A stretch of DNA of 32,000 nt from Psychrobacter cryohalolentis K5 (GTDB taxonomy: Bacteria; Pseudomonadota; Gammaproteobacteria; Pseudomonadales; Moraxellaceae): positions 1,110,001-1,142,000 of the forward strand of contig NC_007969.1 of the NCBI RefSeq assembly GCF_000013905.1, read 5' to 3'. Position numbers and translations under genes: made by a program. The notes beneath the pieces are model-generated. The model was not told the DNA's origin, searched no databases, and saw only the letters and a list, made by a program, of their open reading frames with translations. This document shows, piece by piece, positions 67 to 22,100 of this stretch (within the stretch, counting starts at the first letter, position 1; every line of letters begins with the position of its first letter).

Positions 67-642
67 ATGGAGAGCAATTCAAGAAATACGATTAACTTGA
101 ATTTTAAATTTTACGATAAAAATACAGGAGTCATGCTTATGATAGCTAATGCTGTGCAGAGAGGTAGTAGTGTTTACCTGTATGATGAAACAGGCCAAGA
201 TTTGCCAGTTTCAATTTTTACTAGAGGAGGTAGGTTAGTAGGGTTTACTGCTTCTACAGTAAGCATTCAAAACGGTACCCTTATTTATACTTACGATAAT
301 CGGGGTAATATCTTAGGCACTCCAATTTCTACTGCCTCTCAAGGGACCATTGAGTCTGATGCAACGAATGATAGGGAATCTAGCAGATATAGTAATAGAG
401 CAAATAGTAATACATCAGATTATGGGTTCATTGATGGATATATCGAAAGTTTAACGAATTATGTATACAGGAAGGGATGGAGTCAAAAGAGTATATTTGG
501 AAAACTACTAACTTTGATTTTATTACCCTTTGCAGTTTGCATCTCTGCTATTCAGATTGCTTTCACAATTTTAAGATGGCTAGTGATTGCTGCGGTAGTA
601 CTTGTAGTTCTATATGTATTTTATATAGGTATTTTTGGTTAG
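67..642 (+). CDS. hypothetical membrane-anchored protein (no family recognised)
   Basis: 191-aa ORF from the track. The soluble N-terminal part has two copies of a Y-x-Y-D-x-x-G-like motif (SSVYLYDETGQDL and TLIYTYDNRGNIL). The last ~55 aa are strongly hydrophobic (LLTLILLPFAVCISAIQIAFTILRWLVIAAVVLVVLYVFYIGIF), consistent with two TM helices. Start is uncertain: in-frame Met codons at positions 23 and 25. Confidence 0.5.
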   Translation: MESNSRNTINLNFKFYDKNTGVMLMIANAVQRGSSVYLYDETGQDLPVSIFTRGGRLVGFTASTVSIQNGTLIYTYDNRGNILGTPISTASQGTIESDATNDRESSRYSNRANSNTSDYGFIDGYIESLTNYVYRKGWSQKSIFGKLLTLILLPFAVCISAIQIAFTILRWLVIAAVVLVVLYVFYIGIFG

Positions 643-880: not shown

Positions 881-3154
881 ATGAAAAACGTAGCTGACTC
901 AAATAATGAAGAATGGATGCAAGAGATTTGGGATTGGGCAGATAAATTTAATATTGAAAAAGATATTATCCCTAGAAAGCCAAAAAAATTAATTAAGTTA
1001 GAAGTACTGGAAATTAGTTACAATGATGAAATAAGTACAATACCTGAAAGTATTGGAAATCTTAAGAGTTTAGTAACTTTCGCACTAGAAGGAAGTAAAG
1101 TAAAAAAATTACCAAACAGTATCGGTGAATTATCTAAACTGAAGCAATTAGTAATTAGCAGTAATGATAAACTAACTGAACTTCCTAAAAGCATGGGTAA
1201 TCTTGAAAATTTGGAAGAACTTCAGTTGAGAGGAAATGGACTTAAAAAATTACCAGATAGTTTCGGGCAGCTATCAAACTTAATATACCTAACCATTAAC
1301 GGTAACTATAACTTAACTGAACTTCCTGAAAGTCTTGGAGGCCTTGAAAACCTAGAAAGCCTTACTTTAGGATACATGGGGATAACAAAATTACCAGAAA
1401 GTATTGGTCAGCTATCAAAATTAAAATATTTAACTATTGAAGATCTTGAAAACATAATTGATCTTCCTGAAAGTATTAAAGACCTTGGGAATTTAGAAAG
1501 CCTTACTTTAGAGAATAGTGGTTTTAAAAAATTACCAGAAAGTATTGGTCAGTTGTTAAATTTAACAAATTTAACTATTAATTATAATAATAATATCACC
1601 GAATTTCCTGAAAGTATTGGAAATTTAAATATTTTAGAATATCTTAGTTTAGGAGGTAATAGTGTTAAAAAATTACCAGATAGTATTGGAAAATTATTTA
1701 GTTTAAGAGAGCTAAACATTAGTAATATTGAAAAATCGATCGATATTCCTGAAAGTATTGGCAATCTTAAGAATTTAGAAAGCCTTAGTTTAGGATACAT
1801 AAATATTAAGAAATTACCTGAAAATATTTTTCAATTATCAAGTTTATTAAGTTTGACTATAGTAGATAATATGAAACTCACAGAAATTTCTGAAAATATT
1901 AATAAACTTAAAAATTTAGAGACACTCTATTTAAAAGGTAATAACTTTAAAAAATTACCTAGTAGTATTGGTCAGTTATCAAAATTGATAGATTTAAGTA
2001 TAGAATATACTGGAAAAATTACAGAAATTCCTGATAGCTTAGTAGAACTTAATAATTTACAGAATCTCACTTTATGTGGTATGGAAATAAAAAAACTACC
2101 TGAAAACATGAGTCACTTGTCATGTCTAACAAATTTAACAATTACACATAATAGAAAACTCACAGAATTCCCTGAGAGTGTTGCAGGTATTAAGAATCTA
2201 GAAATACTATCTTTAAATGAAAACAGTTTAAAAACATTATCTGAAAGCATAAATAAAATGGAAAATTTAAAATATTTATATTTAGCTTCTAATTCTTTAA
2301 AGTCTTTACCTGATTTATCGAATTTAATTAAATTAGAATATTTGGAATTAGATAACAACAAGTTGAATTCTCTTCCTGAAAGTATTATAGGTATGGAGAA
2401 TTTAGAATCAATGAGTGTCTATGGTAACCCTCTTAAAGCTATTTCGAAACCTGTATTAAGTTTTCTAAAAAATTTAGACGTTTACGTTGATGGAGTTGAT
2501 GAGGTTGATGAGGTTGATGAATCAGATTATTCAACTTCAAACATCTCTAATGAAAATGATACTTCAAGATTTCTTCAGGTAAATGGTTATGGGGTAGAGA
2601 CCTTTGCTGGTACTGTAGAGGCTGCAACGTATCAATACTTCGAAGATAATGATATAGATCTTGAAAGTTATAGTAATGATGCTGAGTGGGGTAATGATGA
2701 CTGCCAAGTTCCAGAGGAGCATAACTTTGGCGGGTATGGATTATATGAAGTCGATAATCTATGGCATGTCAACGGCGCTTATTTAACAGAAGATACTCAA
2801 ATTGAGTTGGTGAACGGTTCTGAAGATACAATCTGGAGTTCGAACTGTGATACTGAATCGCTTGAATCGCAAGGTATTAAGTTGATTTGCGTTTCAAGTC
2901 AAGAAGATATTTTTGATAGCTTAGATTTAAAGACAGTTGTCATGATTGGTAGAATTTTCCAACAAGGTTGTACTTTTGAGACTCAACTTCAGGATATTGA
3001 AAATTTTGATCCAAATAACCTGACTATCTACTACCATGAAGATGAAAGCGGACGTATTATTAAGAAAATTGAATACAATGATACTGAGCTTGAAAACGGC
3101 AATAGTAGTACTTCTGGTTCAGGATCTGAATATTCTTGGGAAGTCATTGGATAG
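881..3154 (+). CDS. large LRR protein: Trp-rich N-terminal cap + about 20 LRR units + uncharacterised ~190-aa C-terminal domain
   Basis: 757-aa ORF with an AGGG-type SD upstream of the ATG. It has about 20 tandem 23-24-aa units of consensus LxxLxxLxLxxNxxLxELPESIGxLxxL (e.g. LPESIGNLKNLESLSL). N-terminus: EEWMQEIWDWADKFNIEKDIIPRKPKKL. The C-terminal domain (about 2570-3151; NGYGVETFAGTVEAATYQYFEDNDIDL...EHNFGGYGLYEVDNLWHVNGAYL...LTIYYHED) is clearly homologous to the C-terminus of the 3443-5584 protein. No signal peptide, P-loop or TM segment seen. Confidence 0.9.
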   Translation: MKNVADSNNEEWMQEIWDWADKFNIEKDIIPRKPKKLIKLEVLEISYNDEISTIPESIGNLKSLVTFALEGSKVKKLPNSIGELSKLKQLVISSNDKLTELPKSMGNLENLEELQLRGNGLKKLPDSFGQLSNLIYLTINGNYNLTELPESLGGLENLESLTLGYMGITKLPESIGQLSKLKYLTIEDLENIIDLPESIKDLGNLESLTLENSGFKKLPESIGQLLNLTNLTINYNNNITEFPESIGNLNILEYLSLGGNSVKKLPDSIGKLFSLRELNISNIEKSIDIPESIGNLKNLESLSLGYINIKKLPENIFQLSSLLSLTIVDNMKLTEISENINKLKNLETLYLKGNNFKKLPSSIGQLSKLIDLSIEYTGKITEIPDSLVELNNLQNLTLCGMEIKKLPENMSHLSCLTNLTITHNRKLTEFPESVAGIKNLEILSLNENSLKTLSESINKMENLKYLYLASNSLKSLPDLSNLIKLEYLELDNNKLNSLPESIIGMENLESMSVYGNPLKAISKPVLSFLKNLDVYVDGVDEVDEVDESDYSTSNISNENDTSRFLQVNGYGVETFAGTVEAATYQYFEDNDIDLESYSNDAEWGNDDCQVPEEHNFGGYGLYEVDNLWHVNGAYLTEDTQIELVNGSEDTIWSSNCDTESLESQGIKLICVSSQEDIFDSLDLKTVVMIGRIFQQGCTFETQLQDIENFDPNNLTIYYHEDESGRIIKKIEYNDTELENGNSSTSGSGSEYSWEVIG
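2486..2521 (+). repeat. in-frame 9-bp tandem repeat, 4 copies (GTTGATGGA, GTTGATGAG x2, GTTGATGAA)
   Basis: Read directly from the sequence. Encodes VDG-VDE-VDE-VDE in the acidic linker between the LRR array and the C-terminal domain of the 881-3154 protein. Confidence 0.85.
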
Positions 3155-3204
3155 TAGGGTATTTAATATTTTTTAGAATGAAGTCCTATCAAAATATTTA
3201 TAGT

Positions 3205-3243
3205 GCGCTTAGTGAAATCCTCAATTTTGCTAAGCGCGTTTTT
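3205..3243 (+). terminator. putative rho-independent terminator of the 881-3154 gene
   Basis: 8-bp stem GCGCTTAG (3205-3212) / CTAAGCGC (3230-3237) with a 17-nt loop, followed by GTTTTT (3238-3243). Lies about 50 nt after the stop codon. Confidence 0.5.
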
Positions 3244-3442
3244 AAATATCATGAATTTTTAAAAACAGTATCTCTTACAAACAAAGTGATTTTTTAGCAC
3301 ATTAAGTTCTCAAAATATCAAGCAACGATGAGTATTGTTTTTAAGTATTAGCCAAAAATTATTACTCATCAATTCAGGTTTTACGCTCTATAGCCTAAGT
3401 AGTTATCGAATACTATAATCAGAAAATACGATATTAACAGGG

Positions 3443-5584
3443 TTATATAATGACAAACCAAGACAATTCTTGTCTTTGTCCATATGAAGAACTTGACTCA
3501 TCTTCTATTATTTTACCGTCGTATTTAATCATTTTAATAACATCAATTCCATCGTCTTCGTGATAATAAATAACTAGTTTACTTGCATCGAATTTTTCAG
3601 TTAATTTAATTTTGGTCTTAAAAATGACACCATTTGAAACATACCTACCAGCTATAACAGCTAATGGTGTTGGTAATTCATTCACAATTTCGTCAAAATC
3701 ACCATCGCATATTATTTTAACACCTTGATCCTTTAGATCCTTCGAACTTAAAGAGCTTTGCCAGATACATGAATTATTACCATCGATAACTTCAATCTCA
3801 TTATCATCAATGTCTAAATATGCACCGTTTATATGCCATAAATCATCCGTTTGTTCAAGACCCATTCCTCCAAAATTATGTTCATCTGAGATATCTAATT
3901 CATCTAAGTCAAAAGTAACATCATGATTGTATTCATTAAGATCTATACCGTTATCTTCAAAATATTGATAAGTTTTAAAATCCACAGTACCTCCAAAAGT
4001 CTCTACACCAGTGCCATTAATTTGGATCGTTACTACATTATTTTTTTCACCATTGTTATTGATCATTTCAAGATTTTCATTAAGGCCAATTATACTAACG
4101 TTGATCATCTGAGATAAAACATTTAAAACCTGTGAACTTAGCGCATTATCATTAACAGGAATCCAAAACTCTTTCAAGCTATTAATTTCATTCATGCTAT
4201 TAGGCAATGTAGTGATTGGATTATCGTCAATATATATCTTTTCAATAAAACATAGCTTATTTATGGAATCAGGTAAAGTAGTTAGTTTGTTAGATCTACA
4301 ATTCAAATGACTTAAGTTTGACAATGAGCTTATTGAGTCAGGTAAAGTAGTCAATTCGTTATAACTACAGTCTAATTTTTTAAGATTTGACATCAAACCT
4401 ATTGAGTCAGGTAAAGTAGTTAATTTGTTATAACTACAATCTAAATAACTTAAGTTTGACAATGAGCTAATTGAGTCAGGTAAACATTTCAGTTTATTAT
4501 CAGTAATTATTAGATCAACTAAATTTTTAAGTGATCCTATATTCTCAGGCAGATATTTAATTTTATTGTTATAAATATCTAATTTTTCTAAAAGTTGTAA
4601 GTTTCCTATATTGCTTGGGAGTTCTATGAGTTCATTACATTCTAGGTTAAGAGACTTAAGGTTGGTTAAATTTTCAATATTTTTAGATAGTTTTTTTAAA
4701 TTACAATTTCGTAAGTTCAAATATTCTAAGGAAGGTAAATCAAAAAGAGAGTTATTTATTTTCATATTGTAATTTGAATCAAGGTCTAAATATTTTATAT
4801 TTTTTAGATCCTTAAAGTTATCAGGGATTGTTTTGATATCAAGGCCTGATAGGCGTAGTCTTTCTAAATATTGAAACTGAGTGACGATTTCAAGTGTATT
4901 TGAAATATTAAATGTATCAAAAAAATTAATGTAAAAAGCTAGATTCGATAATTTTTTTTGATTCAAGATAAAATCTGGAAATTTATCTTTTGAGTAGCTC
5001 CCAATTTCTATACTAGTTAAATTTTTTAAATGATTAATGCTTTGGGGTAATATTTCTATTGAATTAGAGCTATAGTGTAAAAGATTAAGATTTTCGAGAT
5101 TGCCTATAAGATCAGGAAGTTTTTTTAAATTATAGTTATTTTTTAAATTAAGGTGCTCTAAATTTTCTAACTCAGAAATACTCTCAGGTAAAGATTTAAT
5201 TTTTATATTAGTACTAACGTCTAAATATTTTAGCCCTTTTAATTTATTTATACTTTTTGGTAAAATGCTTATCTTATTATTATTTAACTTGAGAGTTTCA
5301 AGTTCATTTAATTTCATTAAAAATGCAGGAACTGACTTTAAATCTGAATTGCTTAAGTCAAGATATTTTAGTTTTTTTAAGTTTGAAAAAGCTTTAGGTA
5401 GTGGGTTTATGTACCTAAAAGTTCGACTACTATCAGATTCATAAACAACACTGCTAAATTTTTGTAGATTAATTAAGTCGCTGGCATTACGAGGTATATC
5501 TTGTTCGGATAAATCATTCTCATCCGCCCACTTCCAGATTTCTTCCATCCACGTTTCAGTCTGTTGAATACTGTTGTTTAGCAT
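3443..5584 (-). CDS. large LRR protein, paralog of 881-3154 (same cap, about 17 LRR units, same C-terminal domain)
   Basis: 713-aa ORF. N-terminus: ETWMEEIWKWADENDLSEQDIPRNASDL. LRR units such as LPDSISSLSNLSYLDCSYNKLTT. The C-terminal domain (about 3446-4035; NGTGVETFGGTVDFKTYQYFEDNGIDL...EHNFGGMGLEQTDDLWHINGAYL...LVIYYHED) aligns colinearly with the other paralog. Convergent with 881-3154. Confidence 0.9.
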   Translation of the reverse strand: MLNNSIQQTETWMEEIWKWADENDLSEQDIPRNASDLINLQKFSSVVYESDSSRTFRYINPLPKAFSNLKKLKYLDLSNSDLKSVPAFLMKLNELETLKLNNNKISILPKSINKLKGLKYLDVSTNIKIKSLPESISELENLEHLNLKNNYNLKKLPDLIGNLENLNLLHYSSNSIEILPQSINHLKNLTSIEIGSYSKDKFPDFILNQKKLSNLAFYINFFDTFNISNTLEIVTQFQYLERLRLSGLDIKTIPDNFKDLKNIKYLDLDSNYNMKINNSLFDLPSLEYLNLRNCNLKKLSKNIENLTNLKSLNLECNELIELPSNIGNLQLLEKLDIYNNKIKYLPENIGSLKNLVDLIITDNKLKCLPDSISSLSNLSYLDCSYNKLTTLPDSIGLMSNLKKLDCSYNELTTLPDSISSLSNLSHLNCRSNKLTTLPDSINKLCFIEKIYIDDNPITTLPNSMNEINSLKEFWIPVNDNALSSQVLNVLSQMINVSIIGLNENLEMINNNGEKNNVVTIQINGTGVETFGGTVDFKTYQYFEDNGIDLNEYNHDVTFDLDELDISDEHNFGGMGLEQTDDLWHINGAYLDIDDNEIEVIDGNNSCIWQSSLSSKDLKDQGVKIICDGDFDEIVNELPTPLAVIAGRYVSNGVIFKTKIKLTEKFDASKLVIYYHEDDGIDVIKMIKYDGKIIEDESSSSYGQRQELSWFVII
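4263..4484 (-). repeat. 69-bp tandem repeat (3 full units + partial) = recently duplicated 23-aa LRR units
   Basis: Units start at 4263, 4332, 4401 and 4470 with an exact 69-bp period. Each begins ATKGARTCAGGTAAA. They encode LPDSISSLSNLSHLNCRSNKLTT / LPDSIGLMSNLKKLDCSYNELTT / LPDSISSLSNLSYLDCSYNKLTT. Similarity is mosaic: the unit 1 tail (CTTAAGTTTGACAATGAGCT) is identical to the unit 3 tail, and the unit 2 head nearly equals the unit 3 head. Confidence 0.85.
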
Positions 5585-6100
5585 GCTGAGTCCCTTGTAT
5601 AATTGATTCTGAATTGAGAAAATAATTTTAAATTATATTATCATTAGTATGTTATTAAGCCAAGTTAAAAAAATATAATCTATATTTTTGATAAATTATT
5701 TATATTGTTGTTAATCTAATTTTATATTAATTAAATTGATTTATACCTATTCATTCTTGATGTTCTTTGGATCAAATCTTTAAAAAAATGGCACTCATCA
5801 TACTTGTCCATCAGAATTTTTGACCATATCAAAACTTATATTATTCATTTTAATCATGTATTTAGTCTTGGTACTGGAGATCAGAGTTTATCTTCACTGC
5901 TTGTAGAGAATTTTAATCAGTATATTGTGATGCAAAACTATAAAATTTAGTTTGTTACTATTCATTTAGCTGCGGCTGTGGTTGATATTTTAAAACATCT
6001 ACTAATTTTTATTTTAAATAAATGGTATCTTAGACACTTACGCGTAATCAGATATTAAATAGAATACTTTAATCAGAAAGTATAACATTAACAGGATTTT

Positions 6101-8533
6101 ATGATGACTGAAAATTTTGAAGCAATAGATGTAAATTCTTATTGGTTTGTTGGTGCTGTATATAATGGGATAGACCAAACGTCTCGATTTGTTGAAACAG
6201 GTATCTGGGAGGTTAATCCTGAAGCCAATCAGATTGATTCAGTAAAGTCTATTGAGGCTGGTGATAGGATCGCTATTAAATCAACCTATACTAGAAAAAA
6301 CGAACTACCTTTTGATAATCGAGGCCACACAGTTTCTGTGATGTTAATTAAGGCTATCGGTACCGTTATTGAGAATGTAGGTGACGGTAACCTTTTAAAA
6401 GTAGATTGGGACAACAGCTTTATTGCTAAAGAATGGTATTTTTTCACTAGTCGAAATACAGTTTGGAGAGTCATTCCTGAGACTGCGTTAAGAGTTAATT
6501 TGATTGATTTTGCATTTGACGGTAAAGCTCAAGACATAGATATGTTCCGTAATAATCCTTATTGGCTTGAAAGATTTGGCGATTCACCTTCAGAGCATTC
6601 CGCTTTTGAGTGGACAACTTTCTATGAAGAAATGGCCTCTAAGCTTCTTGCCTTTCGCTATCGTCGTGATGAGCTTGTCACCGGTATTCATAAAATATCT
6701 GAAACAAGTAATGTCATGTCTATTCTTAACGACCAATACGAAGAGGGTGTCGAAGGAGGATTATTAAAAGATATATGTCCTTTTACAGTCATGGCTCTTT
6801 TTAATCGTGGAATCACTGACGATAATCGCAAAATTATAGCTAAAGCATTGGCTGAACTACTTGATTTAACAGAGCCTGTTCCTGAATCTTTTGATGGCAT
6901 TCCTATAGTTAACAACCAAAGGACATGGTTTTTTAGTTATAGCTATAAGCGTCATCCAGATGATATAGATATTCTATGGGAGGTGTTTGCTCAAGCCATC
7001 GCATTTGCCGACTTAGACGGTGAAATTGAAGATGATAGATTCCAGTTTATGGCTGCATATGATAAAGCAACGCACTGCCATAGAGTGGGTTGGAATCTCA
7101 CTATGGGTCTATATTGGATTAGGCCTTGGAAATTCTTAACGCTAGATAGACAATCTCAAGAATACATCAATAAAAAGCTTGATATCGAAATCAATAAAAA
7201 CGGTCCAAAAGCACGCTGTGATGCTAATGATTATTTAAAGTTGTTAGAGAGTTTTGAAACCAGATTTTTAGAAGAAACTTATCCTGTACATTCTTTTCCT
7301 GAACTCTCGCTTGTAGCAGATAAGTATCAGCCTAATGATTTGGAGAAGATATCTAAAAATAACTGGAAATATATTATTCCATCTCAAGTGAAACAGCTCT
7401 GTCATGACAAGCAGTTTAATGAATTTACGGTAGATGAATTTTTAAAAAGGTTTACTAAGGATCTTGAACAAAGATATCCTAAGAACAGTGACGTGAAAAG
7501 AGATATTAAATATGTTTTAAGAGAAATGGCTAAAAATGGAAGTTTGGAGTCACTTAGTAAAGGAGTGTATCGCTTGCTGAATGTAAATATGACCAGTGAT
7601 CTTGATGTTTCAACCTATTCTGAGCTTGATATTCAAACAGTCCCTGATACTTACTCTGCTACTAATATTACATCTGATGGGTGTTTTTTGCCTAAAGCTA
7701 AGATTGAGATGATACTCAAACGTTTTCGAGCTAAGAAAAATCTAATACTACAAGGGCCTCCCGGTACTGGTAAAACTTGGTTGGCTAAAAGATTAGCCTT
7801 TGCTTTAATGGGTCAGCGTGACGATAGCAAAATACGAGCCGTGCAATTTCATCCTAATTTGTCTTATGAAGATTTTATTAGAGGTTGGCGTCCATCAGGT
7901 GAGGGCAAGCTGACATTGGTAGACGGTCCTTTTATGGAAATGATCAAAGCCGCTATTGATGATCCTGAATCAAAGTACGTTATTGTCATCGAAGAGATTA
8001 ACCGAGGTAACCCTGCTCAAGTGTTCGGTGAGATGCTCACACTACTTGAAACCGATAAAAGAACCCCAGACGAAGCGTTAGAGCTGTCTTATAGAAAGTT
8101 CGATGGTGAACGTGTTTATATTCCCAGTAATTTATATGTCATAGGCACAATGAATATAGCTGACCGTTCGCTGGCCTTGGTTGATCTTGCGCTACGTCGT
8201 CGGTTTGCTTTTATTGATCTTGAGCCAACATTAGGCAAGCCATGGCATGATTGGGTTCAATCCAAAAATGGCATTGATTCAACGATTTTAAATGCAATTG
8301 ACAGTCGCATCAGGGCTCTAAATGAGGATATTGCTGCAGATACCAGTCTTGGTGCTCAGTTTCAAATAGGCCATAGCTATGTCACGCCAGCCGTTGGGAT
8401 GAATATAACGGATGCTAAGGAATGGTTTAGTGAGGTGGTACAGACGGAGATTGGTCCTTTACTGGATGAGTACTGGTTTGATGATCTTGAGAAGTCGCAA
8501 AAAGCGCAGAAACGCTTGATTGAAGGTCTGTAA
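6101..8533 (+). CDS. mcrB: McrB-family AAA+ GTPase subunit of a type IV (modification-dependent) restriction system, with a ~530-aa N-terminal extension
   Basis: 810 aa. Walker A LILQGPPGTGKTW, Walker B-like YVIVIEEINRGN, and the McrB-type signature GTMNIADRSLALVDLALRRRFAF, all in the last ~280 aa. A winged-helix-like segment (YVLREMAKNGSLESLSKGVYRL) lies upstream, and the N-terminal ~130 aa look like a small beta-barrel (IEAGDRIAIKSTY...IKAIGTVIE). Immediately followed by mcrC. Confidence 0.9.
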   Translation: MMTENFEAIDVNSYWFVGAVYNGIDQTSRFVETGIWEVNPEANQIDSVKSIEAGDRIAIKSTYTRKNELPFDNRGHTVSVMLIKAIGTVIENVGDGNLLKVDWDNSFIAKEWYFFTSRNTVWRVIPETALRVNLIDFAFDGKAQDIDMFRNNPYWLERFGDSPSEHSAFEWTTFYEEMASKLLAFRYRRDELVTGIHKISETSNVMSILNDQYEEGVEGGLLKDICPFTVMALFNRGITDDNRKIIAKALAELLDLTEPVPESFDGIPIVNNQRTWFFSYSYKRHPDDIDILWEVFAQAIAFADLDGEIEDDRFQFMAAYDKATHCHRVGWNLTMGLYWIRPWKFLTLDRQSQEYINKKLDIEINKNGPKARCDANDYLKLLESFETRFLEETYPVHSFPELSLVADKYQPNDLEKISKNNWKYIIPSQVKQLCHDKQFNEFTVDEFLKRFTKDLEQRYPKNSDVKRDIKYVLREMAKNGSLESLSKGVYRLLNVNMTSDLDVSTYSELDIQTVPDTYSATNITSDGCFLPKAKIEMILKRFRAKKNLILQGPPGTGKTWLAKRLAFALMGQRDDSKIRAVQFHPNLSYEDFIRGWRPSGEGKLTLVDGPFMEMIKAAIDDPESKYVIVIEEINRGNPAQVFGEMLTLLETDKRTPDEALELSYRKFDGERVYIPSNLYVIGTMNIADRSLALVDLALRRRFAFIDLEPTLGKPWHDWVQSKNGIDSTILNAIDSRIRALNEDIAADTSLGAQFQIGHSYVTPAVGMNITDAKEWFSEVVQTEIGPLLDEYWFDDLEKSQKAQKRLIEGL

Positions 8534-8537
8534 GTCT

Positions 8538-9662
8538 ATGTCTATTGAAATAGATTCGCTGTCTGAATATTATGATGAGATCAAGTCTATAGGCAAAATA
8601 CCTATACGCAACCTTTGGCTGCTTATGCTTTATGCCTCGGATATGTATAGAGAGTTTGAAGCGGCTAAGATTTCAGTTGAAAATAATCCTGATGATATTC
8701 CAGACCTAATTGCAGAAATGCTCTGTCGACGAGTTGAGCATCGGATTCAGCGTAATTTGAGTTATAGTTATCAGTCTCGAGATGCTGTGCTCAATCGTGT
8801 CCGAGGTAGAATAGATCTGCTTAGCACTGAGAGAAATAGATTGCTTGATCGTGGTAAAGTCGCTTGTCATTTTGATGAGTTAACCCTTGATACCTCGCGT
8901 AATAGATATGTCCGTGCTGCCTTAGAGAGTATTTCTAAGATTGTAAAAAATAAGGATTTAGCTCATAGGTGTCGATCACTAGATGTTCGCTTAAGGCGCA
9001 TGGGAGTCAGTCAGACACGTCCAAGTCGCAGTCAAGTCTCAGTAGATCGCTTTGGACGGCATGATGCTGAAGATCAACCTATGGTTACCGCCGCTCATCT
9101 AGCTTTTAATCTTGCGCTACCGACTGAGTTTGAAGGTACAAAGCAGTTAAACTCACCAGAGAGAGATAATTTACCCTGGCTTCGTAAGCTTTTTGAAAAA
9201 GGAGTTGCTGGGTTCTATGACACGGTCTTGTCAAAGCAGAGCTATCGTATAAGCGCTGGCAAAACTCTGAGATGGCAAATAAAGGATAAGAGCTTAGGCA
9301 TTGATAAGATACTTCCTAACATGAGAACAGATATCTTAATAGATGATATGGAATTAGGACATCGCTTAGTCATTGATACTAAGTTCAACGCTGTCGTAAT
9401 CAATGGTTGGTATAGAGATGAAACCTTACGTAGTGGTTATCTATATCAGATGTACGCCTATTTAAGATCGCAAGAAGGTAATGGCGACCTACTCAATGAA
9501 ACTGCTTCCGGATTACTACTTCATCCCTCTGTAGGTAAAAACGTTAATGAGTACATCGTCATGCAAAATCATAAAATTCAGTTCGCTACTGTCGATCTAG
9601 CAGCGACTGCAATTGAGATTAGAGAGCAGCTATTACAAGTTATTGGTGTTGAGCAAAATTAA
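8538..9662 (+). CDS. mcrC: McrC-family nuclease subunit
   Basis: Follows mcrB within a few nt. Size (~375 aa) is typical of McrC. N-terminal IPIRNLWLLMLYASD and a C-terminal PD-(D/E)xK-like RTDILIDD...LVIDTKFN. The track ORF starts at TTG 8520 and overlaps mcrB. ATG 8538 with GAAGG upstream is the more likely start. Confidence 0.85.
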   Translation: MSIEIDSLSEYYDEIKSIGKIPIRNLWLLMLYASDMYREFEAAKISVENNPDDIPDLIAEMLCRRVEHRIQRNLSYSYQSRDAVLNRVRGRIDLLSTERNRLLDRGKVACHFDELTLDTSRNRYVRAALESISKIVKNKDLAHRCRSLDVRLRRMGVSQTRPSRSQVSVDRFGRHDAEDQPMVTAAHLAFNLALPTEFEGTKQLNSPERDNLPWLRKLFEKGVAGFYDTVLSKQSYRISAGKTLRWQIKDKSLGIDKILPNMRTDILIDDMELGHRLVIDTKFNAVVINGWYRDETLRSGYLYQMYAYLRSQEGNGDLLNETASGLLLHPSVGKNVNEYIVMQNHKIQFATVDLAATAIEIREQLLQVIGVEQN

Positions 9663-11230: not shown

Positions 11231-12136
11231 ATGACGAATACAAAATGTATTTTCGAGAAAAAACGCATAGACAATGTACAGTGGTCAGGTGTATCAAGAA
11301 TATCAAGTTTACCGTCACTACCGAATGATGGTAAATCCCCACCACTTAAAATTCCGTTGTTCTATCTGACTAGCGTGTCTATTAACGATTATGAAGATGA
11401 TATCTATTTTGTTAATAATACCGATCAGACGCTACACTTTGTAGCGCCATTTAAGCTATATCAGAACTTAAATGAAGCGGGTGCCAAGCTCGGTGATGTC
11501 AGTGTTGAAAATCTAAATAAAGTGACGTTTTATAGCAATGATATGGACCGGTTATACACTGACGTACTTCCCAATCAAGGCGTGCGTATTGATAGTACTC
11601 ATATCATTTATGACAGTGATTATTTGATACAGCACTTTATTCATGTTCCGTTTAAGGGGCTTGATACCCATTATGGTATTTGGCGCTTTAACGTGGTTGA
11701 AAAAGGTGGGATTGGTCAGAGCTATCCACTATTGTGGGATGACTTTAGTAAGCCCTCACATATGGTCAGTTGTGACTGTATGTCTGAGCGAGGTGAGATA
11801 CCGATAGAGCCTTCAGTGTATGAAGAACGCTGTTGGGTATTAGATAGTCTGATCCAGTCTCTTGGTGTGACTAATGCCATATTTATACTGGCTATTAATG
11901 ATGTACTGTACCGTTATTGTGTGGGCTGGAGCGCGCCCTATAACGAGTCTGATATACAGGCAAAAGACATTGCCCGTAAATTACAAGAGCTAAAGCCTAG
12001 CGATGCTGATGCGGTAGAAGAGATTATCCAAGCCGTTTATGATTTCTGGTTTAACGTGGGCTTTGCTAAGAATATTCCGGTGGAGGCTTGCGCGGAGATT
12101 TTAGATTTGTATAAAGAGTGGATGGCTAATAATTAA
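11231..12136 (+). CDS. hypothetical protein (no family recognised)
   Basis: 301-aa ORF with a good SD (AAGGA 7 nt upstream of the ATG). Followed 14 nt later by the hydrolase gene. No motif recognised. Confidence 0.7.
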   Translation: MTNTKCIFEKKRIDNVQWSGVSRISSLPSLPNDGKSPPLKIPLFYLTSVSINDYEDDIYFVNNTDQTLHFVAPFKLYQNLNEAGAKLGDVSVENLNKVTFYSNDMDRLYTDVLPNQGVRIDSTHIIYDSDYLIQHFIHVPFKGLDTHYGIWRFNVVEKGGIGQSYPLLWDDFSKPSHMVSCDCMSERGEIPIEPSVYEERCWVLDSLIQSLGVTNAIFILAINDVLYRYCVGWSAPYNESDIQAKDIARKLQELKPSDADAVEEIIQAVYDFWFNVGFAKNIPVEACAEILDLYKEWMANN

Positions 12137-12150
12137 AAAAGGAGAAAGCC

Positions 12151-12735
12151 ATGATGTTTCCCATTGAAAATAACGACACATTTTTACTATTCTTTCACGG
12201 TCTTGATTCAAGCTGTGAGACCAATAAATACACCTGTATTAAACGTGAGCCCAAATATTGCCAAACCGTCAATTATAGAGATGATTTCGAAGAGATTTTC
12301 AATATTTATGACATATTAATTCAAGAAAAAATGAAGCAGTATCCGCGAGTAGTATTAGCAGGGCACTCACTTGGTGGATGGTTTGCCAATCATTTTGCGC
12401 ATAAATACAATCTGCGTGCGCTATTGATTGCGCCCTGCATTTATCCTAGTGAGGTATTAGCCGATCGTATTCCGCAAGTCGCTGATATGAAATTGTCTTT
12501 TCCCACCTCAAATACTGAAATGGTACGAGTGATGATAGAGGTCGATGATGAGTCTTTGGATGTGGCCGTCGCTAGACGAACGTTAGTGAATTTACCTGAC
12601 AGCTGGGAGGTGGAGTATTTTGAGAATGGTCATCACCGTATTGCCCGCAGTGAAGATATTTGGTATCACTTAGTTCACCTGTGCGAAGATCCCATTATCT
12701 GGATGGATGAGGCGACGTATCATGGGGAAGAATAA
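12151..12735 (+). CDS. small alpha/beta-hydrolase, YqiA/UPF0227-like esterase
   Basis: 194 aa with a strong SD (AGGAG). FFHGLDSS oxyanion-type start, nucleophile elbow AGHSLGGW (GxSxG), and C-terminal ENGHHRI as candidate catalytic His. Size and motif order match YqiA-like esterases. Confidence 0.75.
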   Translation: MMFPIENNDTFLLFFHGLDSSCETNKYTCIKREPKYCQTVNYRDDFEEIFNIYDILIQEKMKQYPRVVLAGHSLGGWFANHFAHKYNLRALLIAPCIYPSEVLADRIPQVADMKLSFPTSNTEMVRVMIEVDDESLDVAVARRTLVNLPDSWEVEYFENGHHRIARSEDIWYHLVHLCEDPIIWMDEATYHGEE

Positions 12736-12858
12736 CCGATACTACAATTATTGATTAAATCGCCTGATATTTAACTAATTTTATATTCTAACCTAGAATA
12801 TATATTTCTAGGTTGCTTGTTATGATAGCTACTATGATAAACACATAGGCTTATCGTT

Positions 12859-13716
12859 ATGACTGCTTCCCTAAATAACAGTCCTTCAAAAGCTAATCTC
12901 TCTATAGCACAAGCCTGTGCAATCACCTTCCAAGGTAATGCCAGTAATGACCTACAACAAGATGCTTTTTTCTTTTTGGACAATTGGTATCAAGAAGACT
13001 TAGGGGTGATGGCAGTGACACCAGTGGCATCTCCTTTTTGCTTAGCAGTGTCTGATGGTGTGGCAAGCTCTAATCATTCACAGCACTGCTCAAAGGCAGT
13101 GGTGAAAGCAATTAGCCGGTTATGGAGTGAGCGGAAGAGCATCCGTTCAGACAGTATTCATCAGCTGATTAATCAAGCCAAACATTCATCTAAGCGTCAT
13201 GATGCAGCGGCAACCCTCGCGATGGTAGTGGGAGAAGTAAATAGTGAAGGCTTAGTAAAGGCAACGATAACCCATGTAGGGGATAGTCGTGTTTACTGGC
13301 TACCCGAAGGCACGTCACAATGGCAATGTCTGACTCGTGATCATAACTTGCTAAATGAACTCATTGATCAGCAGGCACAGGAGCAAGGTCGGCAAGCGGA
13401 GTTTTCTGACTATAACCGAGAAGGAATGGCGGGGAGTCTGTATAGCATTACTGAGTGCTTTGCCTTAACCACTGATGACAGCTATATAAGCAGTGAAGCA
13501 CCAGAAGCCAACTCTTGCACTATTGATGTTAATAGTGGCGACTGTCTCTTGGTTTGTACGGATGGTATTCATGACTTAGTGCCAAGTCATAACTGGCAAA
13601 CTGTCAGTGCACAGACAGATTTGCAGGAGTGGCTCATCACTCTTAAAAATCAGGTCTATGACTCCGATGGCAATGCTTATGATAATGGCACCGCAATTGT
13701 GGTTCGTTTTGATTGA
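12859..13716 (+). CDS. PP2C-family (PPM) Ser/Thr protein phosphatase
   Basis: 285 aa. PPM motifs in the right order: AVSDGVASS, THVGDSRVYW, LLVCTDGIHDLV, DNGTAIVVRF. Confidence 0.85.
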   Translation: MTASLNNSPSKANLSIAQACAITFQGNASNDLQQDAFFFLDNWYQEDLGVMAVTPVASPFCLAVSDGVASSNHSQHCSKAVVKAISRLWSERKSIRSDSIHQLINQAKHSSKRHDAAATLAMVVGEVNSEGLVKATITHVGDSRVYWLPEGTSQWQCLTRDHNLLNELIDQQAQEQGRQAEFSDYNREGMAGSLYSITECFALTTDDSYISSEAPEANSCTIDVNSGDCLLVCTDGIHDLVPSHNWQTVSAQTDLQEWLITLKNQVYDSDGNAYDNGTAIVVRFD

Positions 13717-14858
13717 ACATTTATCTTAATAATAAAGTGATGAGCTCATCACGTAATAGAGTAAATACTATGTCCACGCATCCAATCGCCAGCTATACAA
13801 AGTCGACACGTCTATTTGCTTTATATCAATGTCTGCCTCGTAGTGAAGCGGATGCTGTGTCACTGACAGAGTTGATGATTGGTTATGGTGATAATCCAGA
13901 TAATTTCGCTAATGAGCGTAAAAACTTAGAGAACGATCTGATTGGCTTAAATCAAATCTTTAACGGTATTTTTTATAGTGATGCATTAGTTCGAGTACCG
14001 GAATGGGGGCAAAATATCAGCGGACAAACAGCACGCTTTTATATTGAACCGAGCTTTAGTATCGACGTTCTTAACGAGCAAACAGTGTTCTTTTGGGAGA
14101 TGCTTGATAAATATACCGCAAACTATTTACCAGTGTCTTTTAAACAAGGAATCACAGATAAGCTCACCCAATTAGGCCGGCACAATAAGGATGGTTTCCA
14201 TCAAAGTAAGCTTGGGCAATGGCAAGATTATCTCATCACTTTACCTAGTATTGTGCAAGCACCGACGCTTAATAATGAGGTGGTTGCAAGTATTCATCAA
14301 GCTTTGCTACAAAATCATCAACTACGGATAATCTATCAAAAGAAATGGGCAGGAGAGTCAGCTGTAAGAGTGGTATATCCCAAAGGGCTTATCTTCATCG
14401 ACAATATGGTTTATCTCACAGGCTTTGATCCTACTGATGATCATATCGATGATGAAGCACTGTTAAAAGCGCATCGTAATTTTGCAATCAATCGTATTAC
14501 CGAGGCAGTAGTCATAGATAAGCCGATACCTGACTGGGTAGGGCGAGATACTTTTTCATTAGAGCATTTGCATAAACTGGGTAGGTTAGAGCCGACTGAT
14601 AGTGCACAGATCAAACTGGTTTTAGAGGTACAAAGATATGCCTGTCAGCATTTATACGAGCGTCCGTTATCGATAGATCAAAAAATTATTGCTATCGATG
14701 ACACTTGGAATCAAGTCAGTGCCACTGTTGCCAATACGCTTCGTCTGCAAGATTGGCTGGTAAGTATGTCACAGTTGTCTGTTGTCATTGAGCCACCAGT
14801 GCTAAAAACCGTAATTCTAGAGCGCTTACATAGTGCGTTAGAGTTATATGGAGATTAA
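13713..14858 (+). CDS. HTH-WYL-WCX transcriptional regulator (BrxR/CapW/PafBC-like architecture)
   Basis: N-terminal wHTH-like RLFALYQCLPRSEADAVSLTELM. WYL domain LRIIYQKKWAGESAVRVVYPKGLIFIDNMVYLTGFD...HRNFAINRITEA. C-terminal extension ...LRLQDWLVSMSQLSVVIEPPVLKTVILERL, typical of the WCX domain. The track start is TTG 13713 (4-nt overlap with the PP2C stop). ATG 13740 or ATG 13770 are alternative starts. Confidence 0.8.
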   Translation: MNIYLNNKVMSSSRNRVNTMSTHPIASYTKSTRLFALYQCLPRSEADAVSLTELMIGYGDNPDNFANERKNLENDLIGLNQIFNGIFYSDALVRVPEWGQNISGQTARFYIEPSFSIDVLNEQTVFFWEMLDKYTANYLPVSFKQGITDKLTQLGRHNKDGFHQSKLGQWQDYLITLPSIVQAPTLNNEVVASIHQALLQNHQLRIIYQKKWAGESAVRVVYPKGLIFIDNMVYLTGFDPTDDHIDDEALLKAHRNFAINRITEAVVIDKPIPDWVGRDTFSLEHLHKLGRLEPTDSAQIKLVLEVQRYACQHLYERPLSIDQKIIAIDDTWNQVSATVANTLRLQDWLVSMSQLSVVIEPPVLKTVILERLHSALELYGD

Positions 14859-14932
14859 GATTCAGTTATTAATAATGTGATCTTAAATTATTTAACGAAG
14901 AGTTGATTCTCAACTTTAACAGGAAGTTTAAA

Positions 14933-15934
14933 ATGATAACAAACAATACTACTACTGCAAAACCATGGATGTCAGAGCTGTGGACATGGGCCGATGAGTA
15001 TGGGATTTCTGAAAAGGATTTACCACGAAACGAAGCGCATCTATTGACGATAACAGAATTGGAGATCTGCTCTGACCAGATTACTGAGCTGCCTGAAAGT
15101 ATTGGTTACTTACACAACCTAACCCATTTAGCCCTAAACTGCAAAGCGCTTGAACGTTTGCCAGAGTCTATAGGTCAATTAAGTCAGTTAGAGCGATTGA
15201 CGATTACTAGTGATGAGGTTAAGCAACTTCCTGAGAGCTTTGCTAGGCTAATCAGTTTGAGTTCGCTAAATATTCCTACTCACTTAAGCAATCAGCTACC
15301 CACGACTCTTATGGATAAGTATCATAATGAAAATGAAACGTTATATATAGAGCGTATGGCTTTCACTTCGTTATATAGCCCCTTGGAAAAGAATTATGGC
15401 TTATCCTTTTTCGGGTTTGTTCTTATTAGTGATGATTGGAATGAAAAAGCACTAATTGATTTAAAGTTCAAAGCAGCATTAGAGTTCTTACTCGTTTTGC
15501 AAACCACTGAACAAACTATTGATGATTTTGATGTGGTGGATGGCGTGATCATTTGCAAGCCTGATGAAGTACAAAAAATAATAAATATGTTTGAAACTAC
15601 TTTCGACTATTCTGTGATGGCTATAGACTTTGGAGATGTTAGAGAAGCAATAAATTTTGCGAAACCTGCTAAATTTATACAAGCTAGTGCATTAGAAGTG
15701 TCTGAATCAGACAAAGTATTTAGTCAGATTATTGATCAAATTCCTAAAGAGATAACCGTAAAATCTGTGATGTTTCAAGTGGAAAGTAACCGTTATTTTA
15801 CAGTGGATGAGTTCAAAGTTATGTCAGATACTATTGATAATATGGGTGCAGAGGATGAACATATTTTCTATAGTGCAAAAGTTGTCGATAAGCCTGAGCA
15901 CTGTTGGATGGGTATGATATATATGGTTGGGTAA
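14933..15934 (+). CDS. short LRR protein: same Trp-rich cap + about 4 LRR units + distinct C-terminal domain with FtsZ C-terminal-subdomain-like features
   Basis: ATG 14933 is preceded by AGGAAG; the track ORF starts at TTG 14903. Cap: KPWMSELWTWADEYGISEKDLPRNEAHL. LRRs such as ITELPESIGYLHNLTHLAL, LERLPESIGQLSQLERLTI, VKQLPESFARLISLSSLNI. C-terminal ~105 aa: MAIDFGDVREAI...TVDEFKVMSDTI...CWMGMIYMVG. Confidence 0.8.
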   Translation: MITNNTTTAKPWMSELWTWADEYGISEKDLPRNEAHLLTITELEICSDQITELPESIGYLHNLTHLALNCKALERLPESIGQLSQLERLTITSDEVKQLPESFARLISLSSLNIPTHLSNQLPTTLMDKYHNENETLYIERMAFTSLYSPLEKNYGLSFFGFVLISDDWNEKALIDLKFKAALEFLLVLQTTEQTIDDFDVVDGVIICKPDEVQKIINMFETTFDYSVMAIDFGDVREAINFAKPAKFIQASALEVSESDKVFSQIIDQIPKEITVKSVMFQVESNRYFTVDEFKVMSDTIDNMGAEDEHIFYSAKVVDKPEHCWMGMIYMVG

Positions 15935-22099: not shown

Positions 22100-22100
22100 A

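What the first reader, a model, noticed from the sequence alone, without database searches (positions are those of the whole stretch)
881..5584. Convergent pair of giant cytoplasmic LRR paralogs sharing an unrecognised ~190-aa C-terminal domain
Two convergent genes of 757 and 713 aa have the same three-part layout: a Trp-rich cap, a long LRR solenoid (about 20 and 17 units) and a conserved C-terminal domain. Colinear blocks in that domain include NG-x-GVETF-x-GTV, TYQYFEDN-x-IDL, EHNFGG-x-GL, D-x-LWH-[VI]-NGAYL, QG[IV]K[LI]IC, L-x-IYYHED and SW-x-VI. I cannot assign this domain to any family. Neither protein has a signal peptide, TM segment, P-loop, NEL-type region or TIR-like motif. They sit next to McrBC, type I R-M and Zorya. 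An LRR sensor fused to an unknown output domain is the architecture of eukaryotic innate receptors, and as far as I know it is not among characterised bacterial anti-phage sensors, which mostly use TPR-like or other repeats. That makes this pair a candidate LRR-based sensor-effector class.
Basis: partly seen in the sequence, partly recalled or inferred. Interest (0 to 1): 0.75.

Follow-up and report, generated by a model that had tools for sequence, protein, structure and literature searches.

The report
LRR proteins carrying an unnamed acidic domain
Two cytoplasmic leucine-rich-repeat proteins in a Psychrobacter anti-phage island end in a very acidic 195-residue domain that has no name and no solved structural match, and that mostly occurs as a small stand-alone protein in uncultured phages, plasmids and genomic islands, so it is a real new protein family whose function is still unknown.

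Summary
Genes 881..3154 (+, 757 aa) and 3443..5584 (-, 713 aa) are intact paralogs. Each has a Trp-rich cap, about 21 or about 19 LRRs, and a shared C-terminal domain, here called X.

X matches nothing in Pfam, NCBIfam, PADLOC, PHROGs or PDB sequences. Even so, it belongs to a real family of 205 clusters at 50% identity. AlphaFold gives a confident model (pLDDT 96.9), and Foldseek finds no PDB match for it.

- X is mostly a stand-alone protein of 190-240 aa. A distant subfamily sits in large uncultured phage contigs, and closer relatives sit on a plasmid and in islands.
- The family is extremely acidic (median pI 4.1), cytoplasmic, and never seen fused to a recognisable enzyme.
- LRR fusion is rare and was gained or lost repeatedly.
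- X is under strong purifying selection (dN/dS 0.09). The LRRs evolve about four times faster.
- Gene B lies in a 2.65-kb insertion bracketed by 50-nt direct repeats.

My best guess is an NTPase-less LRR receptor whose X domain acts by binding a nearby partner. An immunity or inhibitor role is nearly as likely. LRR sensors are already known in bacterial NLR-like proteins.

The parts
881..3154 (+). Gene A, 757 aa: cap + about 21 LRRs + acidic linker + X domain
   Evidence: ORF. Pfam finds LRR families only. Orthologs of 523-828 aa sit at the same locus in five Psychrobacter genomes.
881..997 (+). A N-terminal cap (residues 1-39) with motif W-M-x-E-I-W-x-W-A-D...IPR
   Evidence: The motif is shared by A, B, the gene at 14903..15934, all Psychrobacter orthologs and several metagenome proteins.
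998..2464 (+). A LRR solenoid (residues 40-528), about 21 units alternating 24 and 23 residues
   Evidence: dN/dS is 0.37-0.38 against orthologs, and unit number varies between strains.
2465..2566 (+). A acidic linker (residues 529-562; DGVDEVDEVDESD...)
   Evidence: Net charge -7 over residues 541-565.
2567..3151 (+). A X domain (residues 563-757); net charge -33, pI 4.05
   Evidence: No library match. Family of 205 clusters. AF2 pLDDT 96.9. dN/dS 0.09. Conserved E573, D625, H629 and Y732.
3405..3454 (.). Left copy of the 50-nt direct repeat; a duplicated copy of the mcrB 5' region
   Evidence: Family D3. Orthologous loci run from window 3454 straight to 6059.
3455..6058 (.). Inserted cassette carrying gene B and its roughly 470-bp upstream region
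   Evidence: Absent in L005-L009. Present in TARA contig L139.
3443..5584 (-). Gene B, 713 aa: cap + about 18-20 LRRs + X domain (residues 517-713 = 3446..4036)
   Evidence: Identical to WP_011513280.1 of P. cryohalolentis. Its X domain is 61% identical to stand-alone P0161 and P0013.
6059..6108 (.). Right copy of the 50-nt direct repeat, containing the mcrB start codon at 6101
67..642 (+). Small protein (191 aa): beta-rich N-domain + C-terminal TM helices. Candidate partner.
   Evidence: It precedes the cap-LRR-X gene in all syntenic Psychrobacter loci, at 90-97% identity. With the upstream helicase, it lies next to a cap-LRR-Z gene in L162. A homolog lies near stand-alone X on plasmid pA14P1 (E 1.5e-12).
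6101..9662 (+). McrB (810 aa) and McrC (380 aa), immediately downstream. Context only; membership unproven.
   Evidence: Pfam AAA_5 and McrBC. Adjacent in five of six Psychrobacter loci but not in L010.
14903..15934 (+). Third cap-LRR protein with an unrelated acidic C-terminal domain (Y), following a WYL/WCX regulator (13713..14858)
   Evidence: X and Y are not homologous by hhalign.

Best explanation
Genes A and B encode cytoplasmic LRR receptor-like proteins that lack an NTPase. They lie in a Psychrobacter cryohalolentis defence island.

Shown:
- Each protein is a capping helix, a fast-evolving LRR solenoid of variable length, and a strongly conserved, extremely acidic alpha/beta domain of about 195 aa (X).
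- X is an autonomous module of an unnamed family. The family is mostly stand-alone and occurs in uncultured large phages, a Psychrobacter plasmid and genomic islands.
- LRR fusion was gained or lost repeatedly.
- Several different genes recur next to X or cap-LRR-X genes. These are a small 2-TM protein plus an RNaseH-like/SF1 helicase, a KAP NTPase, and a basic protein of 253-264 aa.

Inferred:
- The LRR array is the specificity module and binds a foreign, probably phage, protein.
- X is not an enzyme. It is a binding or regulatory module that holds or recruits a partner encoded nearby. Ligand binding by the LRRs would change that interaction and trigger or release the partner's activity, giving phage defence.
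- Stand-alone phage X proteins would then be decoys or inhibitors acting on the same kind of partner.
For: - Defence context. A cap-LRR-X gene lies between the small TM protein and McrBC in five Psychrobacter genomes and beside a KAP NTPase in a sixth. The island also holds a type I R-M system, GmrSD genes and Zorya.
- Receptor-like evolution. dN/dS is 0.37-0.38 for the LRRs against 0.09 for X. LRR proteins at this locus range from 523 to 828 aa, with tandem copies and fragments.
- X as an autonomous unit. A profile search finds 205 clusters. The AF2 model has pLDDT 96.9. Fused and stand-alone forms are mixed within four sequence clades.
- Binding rather than catalysis. Median pI is 4.09, 15 alignment columns are conserved acidic and only 3 conserved basic. 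The only fusions seen are to LRR in both orders, TPR plus ankyrin, and zinc ribbons.
- Recurrent partners. KAP NTPases 86-92% identical lie next to three different forms of X. The 253-264-aa partner has pI 9.07 and occurs in L004, L042 and L046-L048. The helicase plus small TM protein module lies next to cap-LRR-X and next to cap-LRR-Z in different arrangements.
- Swappable C-termini. The same cap-LRR scaffold carries three unrelated acidic C-terminal domains, X, Y and Z.
- Phage side. Phage relatives lie among nucleotide-metabolism and auxiliary genes, not in structural modules.
Against: - There is no experimental or homology-based function for X or for any proposed partner.
- No single partner is constant. 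The neighbour is McrBC, KAP, the 253-aa protein or the helicase/TM module, depending on the locus. The adjacencies could simply reflect residence in variable islands.
- The KAP-adjacent loci are orthologous and so not independent.
- E573 (90%), D625 (79%), H629 (83%) and Y732 (100%) are conserved across the family and could form an active site. I had no model coordinates to check whether they cluster.
- Close relatives of the window's X were not found in IMG/VR. Only a subfamily about 20-30% identical is demonstrably viral.
Confidence: 0.35

Rival explanations
1. Immunity or antitoxin-type inhibitor. X is a stoichiometric inhibitor of a basic nucleic-acid-targeting toxin or nuclease. LRR-X is a fusion of two binding modules, like the Imm-LRR and fused immunity proteins of polyimmunity loci. 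It would protect the cell from an incoming or neighbouring toxin. Phage and plasmid copies would neutralise host effectors.
For: - The family is small, cytoplasmic and very acidic.
- It is mostly stand-alone.
- It pairs with a basic 253-264-aa protein of pI 9.07 in L004, L042 and L046-L048.
- It is fused only to binding repeats, in either order.
- Paralogs, tandem copies and fragments turn over at one locus.
- Imm-LRR, Imm-Ank and fused immunity domains are documented in PMC3482391.
- Phage-borne relatives exist.
Against: - No Rhs, CdiA, T6SS or other polymorphic toxin gene was detected by Pfam in the window ORFs of at least 100 aa that I scanned.
- X matches none of the Pfam Imm families.
- The 253-aa partner has no recognisable toxin domain.
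- The gene holds a conserved chromosomal position across Psychrobacter species under strong purifying selection, with no toxin nearby.
Confidence: 0.25
2. Sensor plus catalytic effector. The LRRs sense infection and X is a new enzyme, for example a hydrolase using E573, D625, H629 and Y732, that kills or arrests the cell.
For: - Polar residues are conserved across 156 family members: E 90%, D 79%, H 83%, Y 100%.
- X is under strong purifying selection.
- The genes lie in a defence island.
- The cap-LRR scaffold carries swappable C-terminal domains, as effector positions do in conflict systems.
Against: - Most family members are unregulated stand-alone proteins, many of them in phage contigs. 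That is unexpected for a toxic effector.
- There is no similarity to any enzyme family or solved fold.
- The extreme negative charge is unusual for an enzyme that acts on nucleic acids.
Confidence: 0.15
3. Anti-restriction or anti-defence protein of mobile-element origin. X would be a DNA or protein mimic that blocks restriction enzymes such as McrBC, GmrSD or type I R-M, like Ocr, ArdA or Arn. The chromosomal LRR-X genes would be remnants of, or cargo on, a mobile island.
For: - Net charge is about -14 per 100 residues, in the range I recall for DNA mimics (own knowledge).
- X occurs in phage contigs and on a 6.5-kb plasmid.
- Bacterial copies sit next to McrBC and GmrSD.
- Gene B arrived as an inserted cassette.
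Against: - There is no sequence or fold similarity to Ocr or ArdA.
- The gene is stably inherited at one chromosomal locus across species.
- There is no obvious reason for a mimic to carry about 20 fast-evolving LRRs.
- No match was found in 50,697 deposited phage genomes.
Confidence: 0.12
4. Secreted LRR virulence effector or adhesin, of the XopL, XopAC, IpaH or internalin kind.
For: NCBIfam XopAC, XopL and XopAE models hit the LRR region with E values of 1e-106 to 1e-85.
Against: - All scores are below the curated cut-offs (354 against 450, 309 against 500, 286 against 600), and the matches cover only the LRRs.
- There is no signal peptide or TM segment.
- There is no NEL, Fic or other effector domain.
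- The X family is cytoplasmic, with no TM-like segment in 167 of 169 sequences, and is partly phage-borne.
- No secretion-system genes were seen in the window ORFs I scanned.
Confidence: 0.03

Closest known systems
Bacterial NLR-related proteins (bNACHT, e.g. bNACHT16 with C-terminal LRRs) and Avs STAND NTPases
   Same: Cytoplasmic, in defence islands, with a repeat array (LRR, TPR or HEAT) as a presumed ligand sensor joined to another module.
   Different: A and B have no NACHT or STAND NTPase and no P-loop. Their LRRs are N-terminal. The attached module X has no known effector homology.
LRR - AP-GTPase (Roc) - COR conflict proteins with variable C-terminal effectors (Kaur et al. 2021, PMC8195603)
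   Same: Rapidly evolving N-terminal LRRs followed by interchangeable C-terminal domains. Here the same cap-LRR scaffold carries X, Y or Z.
   Different: There is no GTPase or COR domain between the LRRs and the C-terminal domain.
Imm-LRR and fused immunity proteins of polymorphic toxin systems (Zhang et al. 2012, PMC3482391)
   Same: Cytoplasmic LRR proteins that act by binding. Immunity domains are often small, fused to repeats or to each other, and clustered in variable loci.
   Different: There is no toxin gene or secretion system nearby. X matches no Pfam Imm family. The context is R-M, McrBC and Zorya rather than toxin cassettes.
Type III-secreted LRR effectors (XopL, XopAC, XopAE, SspH/IpaH)
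   Same: The same 23-24-residue LxxLxLxxNxLxxLPxxIGxL class of LRR.
   Different: All matches fall below the curated cut-offs. There is no NEL, Fic or XL-box domain and no secretion context.
DNA-mimic anti-restriction proteins (Ocr, ArdA, Arn)
   Same: Small, very acidic, and carried by phages and plasmids. The comparison with Ocr, ArdA and Arn themselves rests on my own knowledge.
   Different: No sequence or fold similarity. X has family-wide conserved E, D, H and Y residues. In Psychrobacter it is fused to long LRR arrays in the chromosome.

Membership tests
Leucine-rich repeat superfamily | Tandem LxxLxLxxN-type units recognised by LRR profile models | tested here: met
   Pfam LRR_14 with E 1.5e-73 (A) and 3.6e-50 (B), plus LRR_8, LRR_4 and LRR_1 above cut-off. 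About 21 and about 19 units traced.
STAND / NLR-like immune receptors (NACHT, NB-ARC, Avs) | Central STAND P-loop NTPase domain | tested here: not met
   No NTPase family found in A or B at E up to 1. PADLOC has no hit.
Roco / AP-GTPase LRR proteins | Roc GTPase plus COR domain after the LRRs | tested here: not met
   Pfam shows only LRR families. A 34-residue acidic linker joins the LRRs directly to X.
XopAC / XopL / XopAE type III effectors (NCBIfam) | Whole-protein score above the curated cut-off, and a non-LRR effector domain | tested here: not met
   Scores are 354.1 against a cut-off of 450, 308.8 against 500 and 285.7 against 600. The matches are confined to the LRRs.
IpaH/SspH NEL E3 ligases | C-terminal NEL domain | tested here: not met
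   The SspH2 model scores 19-36 bits against a cut-off of 1243. There is no NEL hit in Pfam.
Imm-LRR / polyimmunity loci | Adjacency to a polymorphic toxin gene (Rhs, CdiA, T6SS or T7SS) or an array of known Imm families | tested here: not met
   All ORFs of at least 100 aa from 6101 to 30648 were scanned in Pfam and none is a toxin or an Imm family. X has no Imm match. A distant toxin elsewhere in the genome cannot be excluded.
Known anti-phage systems (PADLOC-DB v2) | Match to any PADLOC model | tested here: not met
   Zero hits for A, B, both X domains and the 191-aa protein at E up to 1.
DNA-mimic anti-restriction proteins (Ocr / ArdA) | Strong net negative charge | tested here: met
   X of A has net charge -33 and pI 4.05. 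The family median pI is 4.09.
DNA-mimic anti-restriction proteins (Ocr / ArdA) | Sequence or fold similarity to Ocr or ArdA, and inhibition of restriction enzymes | tested here: not met
   No Pfam ArdA or Ocr hit. Foldseek against the PDB gives a best E of 0.8 with TM no higher than 0.16. Inhibition cannot be tested with these tools.
Unnamed X-domain family (defined here) | Profile match over about 190 residues with G-x-G-x-E, D...H..G, F-D-P..L and an invariant Tyr | tested here: met
   A and B seed the profile. 205 clusters match at E up to 1e-3 and 109 at E up to 1e-10. Conservation is tabulated. BFVD phage proteins superpose with TM 0.77-0.89.

The most novel reading that the evidence does not exclude
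X defines a new class of phage-host conflict module. In bacteria, an LRR array is wired directly to X with no NTPase switch, forming a minimal innate receptor in which X restrains or recruits a neighbouring effector. Large environmental phages would carry stand-alone X proteins as decoys that keep that effector off. The cap-LRR scaffold with swappable acidic X, Y or Z domains would then be a modular receptor family.
Probability: 0.2. Interest if true: 0.85.

Novelty: new variant of a known kind. Interest (0 to 1): 0.6.

Why it matters
Experimentally studied bacterial immune receptors that use repeat sensors couple them to a STAND NTPase. An LRR array joined directly to a conserved non-NTPase module would be a simpler design and closer to some eukaryotic LRR receptors.

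Separately, X is a sizeable protein family with no name and a confidently predicted fold. It has 205 clusters at 50% identity and is shared between uncultured large phages, a plasmid and bacterial defence islands. Whichever side it serves, it is a tractable new player in phage-host conflict:
- The stand-alone forms are small and easy to express.
- There are specific residues to mutate: E573, D625, H629 and Y732.
- There are specific candidate partners to test: the 2-TM protein with the helicase, the KAP NTPase, and the basic 253-aa protein.

Tried and rejected
- **Library scans of X.** Pfam, NCBIfam, PADLOC and PHROGs give no hits.
- **PDB sequence searches.** Neither a single X sequence nor the 79-sequence profile finds anything.
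- **First AF2 model.** Built from a 6-sequence alignment, it was poor (pLDDT 53.6) and I did not use it.
- **Deposited phage genomes.** tblastn of X and of the phage-type relative P0028 finds no match.
- **IMG/VR, close relatives.** Scans for close relatives of the window's X find none.
- **Word-indexed homolog search with the cap plus first LRRs.** Only 3 hits, so it was uninformative.
- **Metagenome DNA pattern for the cap motif.** Most hits were chance. About 10 true cap-LRR genes were recovered by in-frame filtering.
- **Partner proteins.** The 253-aa protein, the 191-aa protein, the 413-aa protein, and the Y and Z domains have no significant Pfam match where scanned and no PDB sequence match.
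- **X against Y homology.** Rejected by hhalign (probability 0.2%).
- **Secreted-effector reading.** Rejected on sub-threshold scores and the lack of a signal peptide.
- **Literature.** I found no paper on these genes or this domain.
Full report
**1. Observation**

The window holds two intact convergent ORFs, 881..3154 (+, 757 aa, 'A') and 3443..5584 (-, 713 aa, 'B'). They align end to end (34% identity, E 2e-115). Pfam sees only LRR families in both, with no P-loop, TIR or NEL domain. I traced about 21 LRR units in A (residues 40-528, alternating 24 and 23 residues) and about 18-20 in B. Neither protein has a TM-like segment or a hydrophobic N-terminus.

The neighbours are as stated:
- McrB and McrC.
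- A type I R-M operon with two embedded GmrSD-type genes.
- ZorA (E 3e-114 to PDB 8qyd) and ZorB.

B is identical to WP_011513280.1 of Psychrobacter cryohalolentis, annotated only as an 'LRR domain-containing protein'.

**2. The C-terminal domain is a real, unnamed family**

X has no match in Pfam, NCBIfam, PADLOC, PHROGs or PDB sequences. A word-indexed search found only about 10 close relatives. A full HMMER profile search of 1.84 billion cluster representatives found 205 clusters at E up to 1e-3 and 109 at E up to 1e-10.

Across 156 domains the best-conserved positions, in protein A numbering, are as follows:

| Position | Conservation |
|---|---|
| G569 | 92% |
| G571 | 92% |
| E573 | 90% |
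| P611 | 87% |
| D625 | 79% |
| H629 | 83% |
| G632 | 90% |
| G696 | 97% |
| F709 | 99% |
| D710 | 79% |
| L714 | 92% |
| Y732 | 100% |

**3. What kind of family it is**

Of the 138 representatives with a near-complete domain:
- 81 are stand-alone proteins of 245 aa or less.
- 48 have the domain at the N-terminus plus a C-terminal extension.
- 9 have it internal or C-terminal. Three of these are LRR fusions and five are zinc-ribbon proteins.

Further fusions are X-cap-LRR in the reverse order (P0090) and X plus TPR plus ankyrin (P0159). I saw no fusion to a recognisable enzyme.

The family is cytoplasmic, with no TM-like segment in 167 of 169 sequences. It is strikingly acidic: median pI 4.09, 95% of members below pI 5, median net charge -14 per 100 residues, 15 conserved acidic columns and 3 conserved basic ones.

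A large subfamily, with an N-terminal leader resembling 'MATKKxKEELIxxLKFTPRTY', lies in more than 30 IMG/VR viral contigs of up to 343 kb. Its neighbours there are gamma-glutamyl-cyclotransferase-like, endolysin-like, GTP cyclohydrolase, DNA ligase and thymidylate synthase genes. That is an auxiliary and nucleotide-metabolism region, not a structural one.

Deposited phage genomes have no match. Close relatives of the window's X were not found in IMG/VR. The bacterial and plasmid clades are therefore distinct from the phage clade.

**4. The Psychrobacter loci**

A genome scan found relatives only in Psychrobacter. Five genomes share this gene order: a 1172-aa RNaseH-like plus SF1 helicase protein, a 191-aa small TM protein (window 67..642), one or two cap-LRR-X genes, McrB, McrC and a 248-aa protein.

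The LRR-X gene there varies from 523 to 828 aa. It is sometimes duplicated in tandem (L007) or accompanied by fragments (L006). Its X domain stays 83-97% identical.

Against the two closest orthologs, dN/dS is 0.09 for X and 0.37-0.38 for the LRRs. X is therefore under strong constraint, and the LRR array is the fast-evolving part.

Gene B is not a local duplicate. Orthologous loci join window 3454 directly to 6059. The intervening 2654 bp is bracketed by 50-nt direct repeats (3405-3454 and 6059-6108, 82% identical) that duplicate the mcrB 5' end. A TARA contig shares the B-mcrB junction. B's X domain is 61% identical to the stand-alone proteins P0161 and P0013 but only 43% identical to A's.

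**5. Fused and stand-alone forms interconvert, and some neighbours recur**

Sequence clades mix LRR-fused and stand-alone members:

| Clade | LRR-fused members | Stand-alone members |
|---|---|---|
| A | window A and its orthologs | none with a verified context (P0005 and P0006, 203 aa, may be truncated calls) |
| K | L010 | P0007, P0008 |
| B | window B | P0161, P0013 |
| P0015/P0016 pair | P0016 | P0015 |

The three K-clade genes all lie next to KAP NTPases that are 86-92% identical to one another, while their X domains are only 58-65% identical. One of these loci also has a GmrSD gene.

A fifth clade is entirely stand-alone. It comprises plasmid pA14P1, L005, P0163 and P0017. Except in L005, and in P0017 whose context was not examined, it is accompanied by a conserved basic protein of 253-264 aa (pI 9.07), in either orientation. 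B-clade P0161 (L042) has the same partner downstream.

Plasmid pA14P1 also carries a homolog of the window's 191-aa protein (E 1.5e-12). P0159 sits in an island with integrase, AlpA and WYL genes. None of these partners has a Pfam or PDB match.

**6. The cap-LRR scaffold is modular**

The cap motif W-M-x-E-[IL]-W-x-W-A-D...IPR also heads a third window gene at 14903..15934. That gene has 4 LRRs and a different acidic domain of about 200 aa, 'Y', and lies directly after a WYL/WCX regulator.

Metagenome relatives carry Y after about 25 LRRs (L069) or a few LRRs (L178). Each follows a WYL gene and a 412-413-aa gene that the window lacks. A stand-alone Y also exists.

Another protein (L162) has the layout cap-LRR-cap-LRR plus a third acidic domain, 'Z'. 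It is transcribed divergently from homologs of the same helicase and small TM protein pair (75% and 62% identity).

X, Y and Z all have pI 4.05-4.36. X and Y are not detectably homologous.

**7. Interpretation**

What is shown: a real new domain family with a confident model and no Foldseek match in the PDB, residence in a defence island, fast-evolving LRRs with a constrained X, an autonomous X, presence in phages and on a plasmid, extreme acidity, and recurring but non-constant neighbours.

What is inferred: the function.

I favour (0.35) an NTPase-less LRR receptor in which X is a binding or regulatory module coupled to a partner encoded nearby, with phage X proteins acting as decoys. This reading accommodates:
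- the receptor-like evolution of the LRRs;
- the inhibitor-like chemistry of X;
- the swappable C-terminal domains;
- the phage homologs.

An immunity or antitoxin-like inhibitor is nearly as plausible (0.25). It is supported by the acidic X paired with a basic partner and by the precedent of Imm-LRR and fused immunity domains (PMC3482391). It is weakened by the absence of any toxin gene.

It is hard to reconcile with the many stand-alone phage copies.

An anti-restriction mimic (0.12) fits the charge and the carriage by phages and a plasmid. It does not fit the stable chromosomal, LRR-fused form.

A secreted effector or adhesin is disfavoured (0.03). The NCBIfam Xop scores are all below cut-off and cover only the LRRs, and there is no signal peptide or secretion context.

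**8. Relation to known systems and novelty**

LRR sensing is not new to bacterial immunity. bNACHT16 carries LRRs, and LRR-AP-GTPase conflict proteins with variable effectors have been predicted (PMC8195603). A and B fail the defining feature of both families, the NTPase. They also fail the PADLOC, Xop, NEL and Imm membership tests.

What is new is the X family itself and the direct LRR-X architecture. I rate this a new variant of a known kind, namely repeat-sensor conflict proteins, built around a previously unnamed domain. I found no literature on these genes.

Interest is 0.6. It is a solid and testable lead, but the function is unknown and several ordinary readings remain open.

Noticed in passing
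window 14903..15934 (+), with 13713..14858; loci L069, L178, L009: A third cap-LRR protein (4 LRRs) carries an unrelated acidic domain of about 200 aa, 'Y', directly after a WYL/WCX regulator. Relatives have up to about 25 LRRs and follow a WYL gene and a 412-413-aa gene (with a D...ExK-like motif by eye) that the window lacks. A stand-alone Y gene exists at L069 2017-2652.
   Followed up: partly
window 3405-3454 and 6059-6108: Direct repeats of 50 nt (82% identical) bracket the 2.65-kb gene-B cassette. The repeat is the mcrB 5' end including its start codon, so the insertion duplicated the mcrB start region.
   Followed up: yes
window 67..642 (+): A 191-aa protein with a beta-rich N-domain and C-terminal TM helices. 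It is 90-97% identical across Psychrobacter species, more conserved than McrB. In other genomes it always follows a 1172-aa RNaseH-like plus SF1 helicase gene that lies just outside the window. A homolog lies on plasmid pA14P1 near stand-alone X. It has no Pfam or PDB match.
   Followed up: partly
window 11231..12136 (+); L003 5433-6593: A 301-aa protein of unknown function has a homolog (36% identity, E 2e-16) in the operon of a KAP NTPase next to a stand-alone X gene in another contig.
   Followed up: no
window 19928..23576 (-): Two GmrSD-type genes (GmrSD_N+GmrSD_C, and GmrSD_N+DUF7834) sit between hsdR and hsdS inside the type I R-M operon.
   Followed up: no
window 12151..13716 (+): An alpha/beta-hydrolase-like gene (UPF0227) and a PP2C phosphatase gene lie just upstream of the WYL regulator. 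They may belong to the same module as the cap-LRR-Y gene.
   Followed up: no
L004 (plasmid pA14P1, NZ_MN657029.1) 3939-4700; L046, L047, L048, L042: A conserved basic protein of 253-264 aa (pI 9.07, no Pfam or PDB match) accompanies stand-alone X genes in L004, L042 and L046-L048, in both orientations. It is a candidate two-gene module.
   Followed up: partly
window 998-2464 (gene A LRR region): The LRR units alternate between 24 residues ('...N..LTELPES.G.L.N') and 23 residues ('LE.L.L.G...KKLP.SIGQLS.'), giving a 47-residue super-repeat. Differences from orthologs cluster at residues 412-460, which suggests recombination between repeats.
   Followed up: partly
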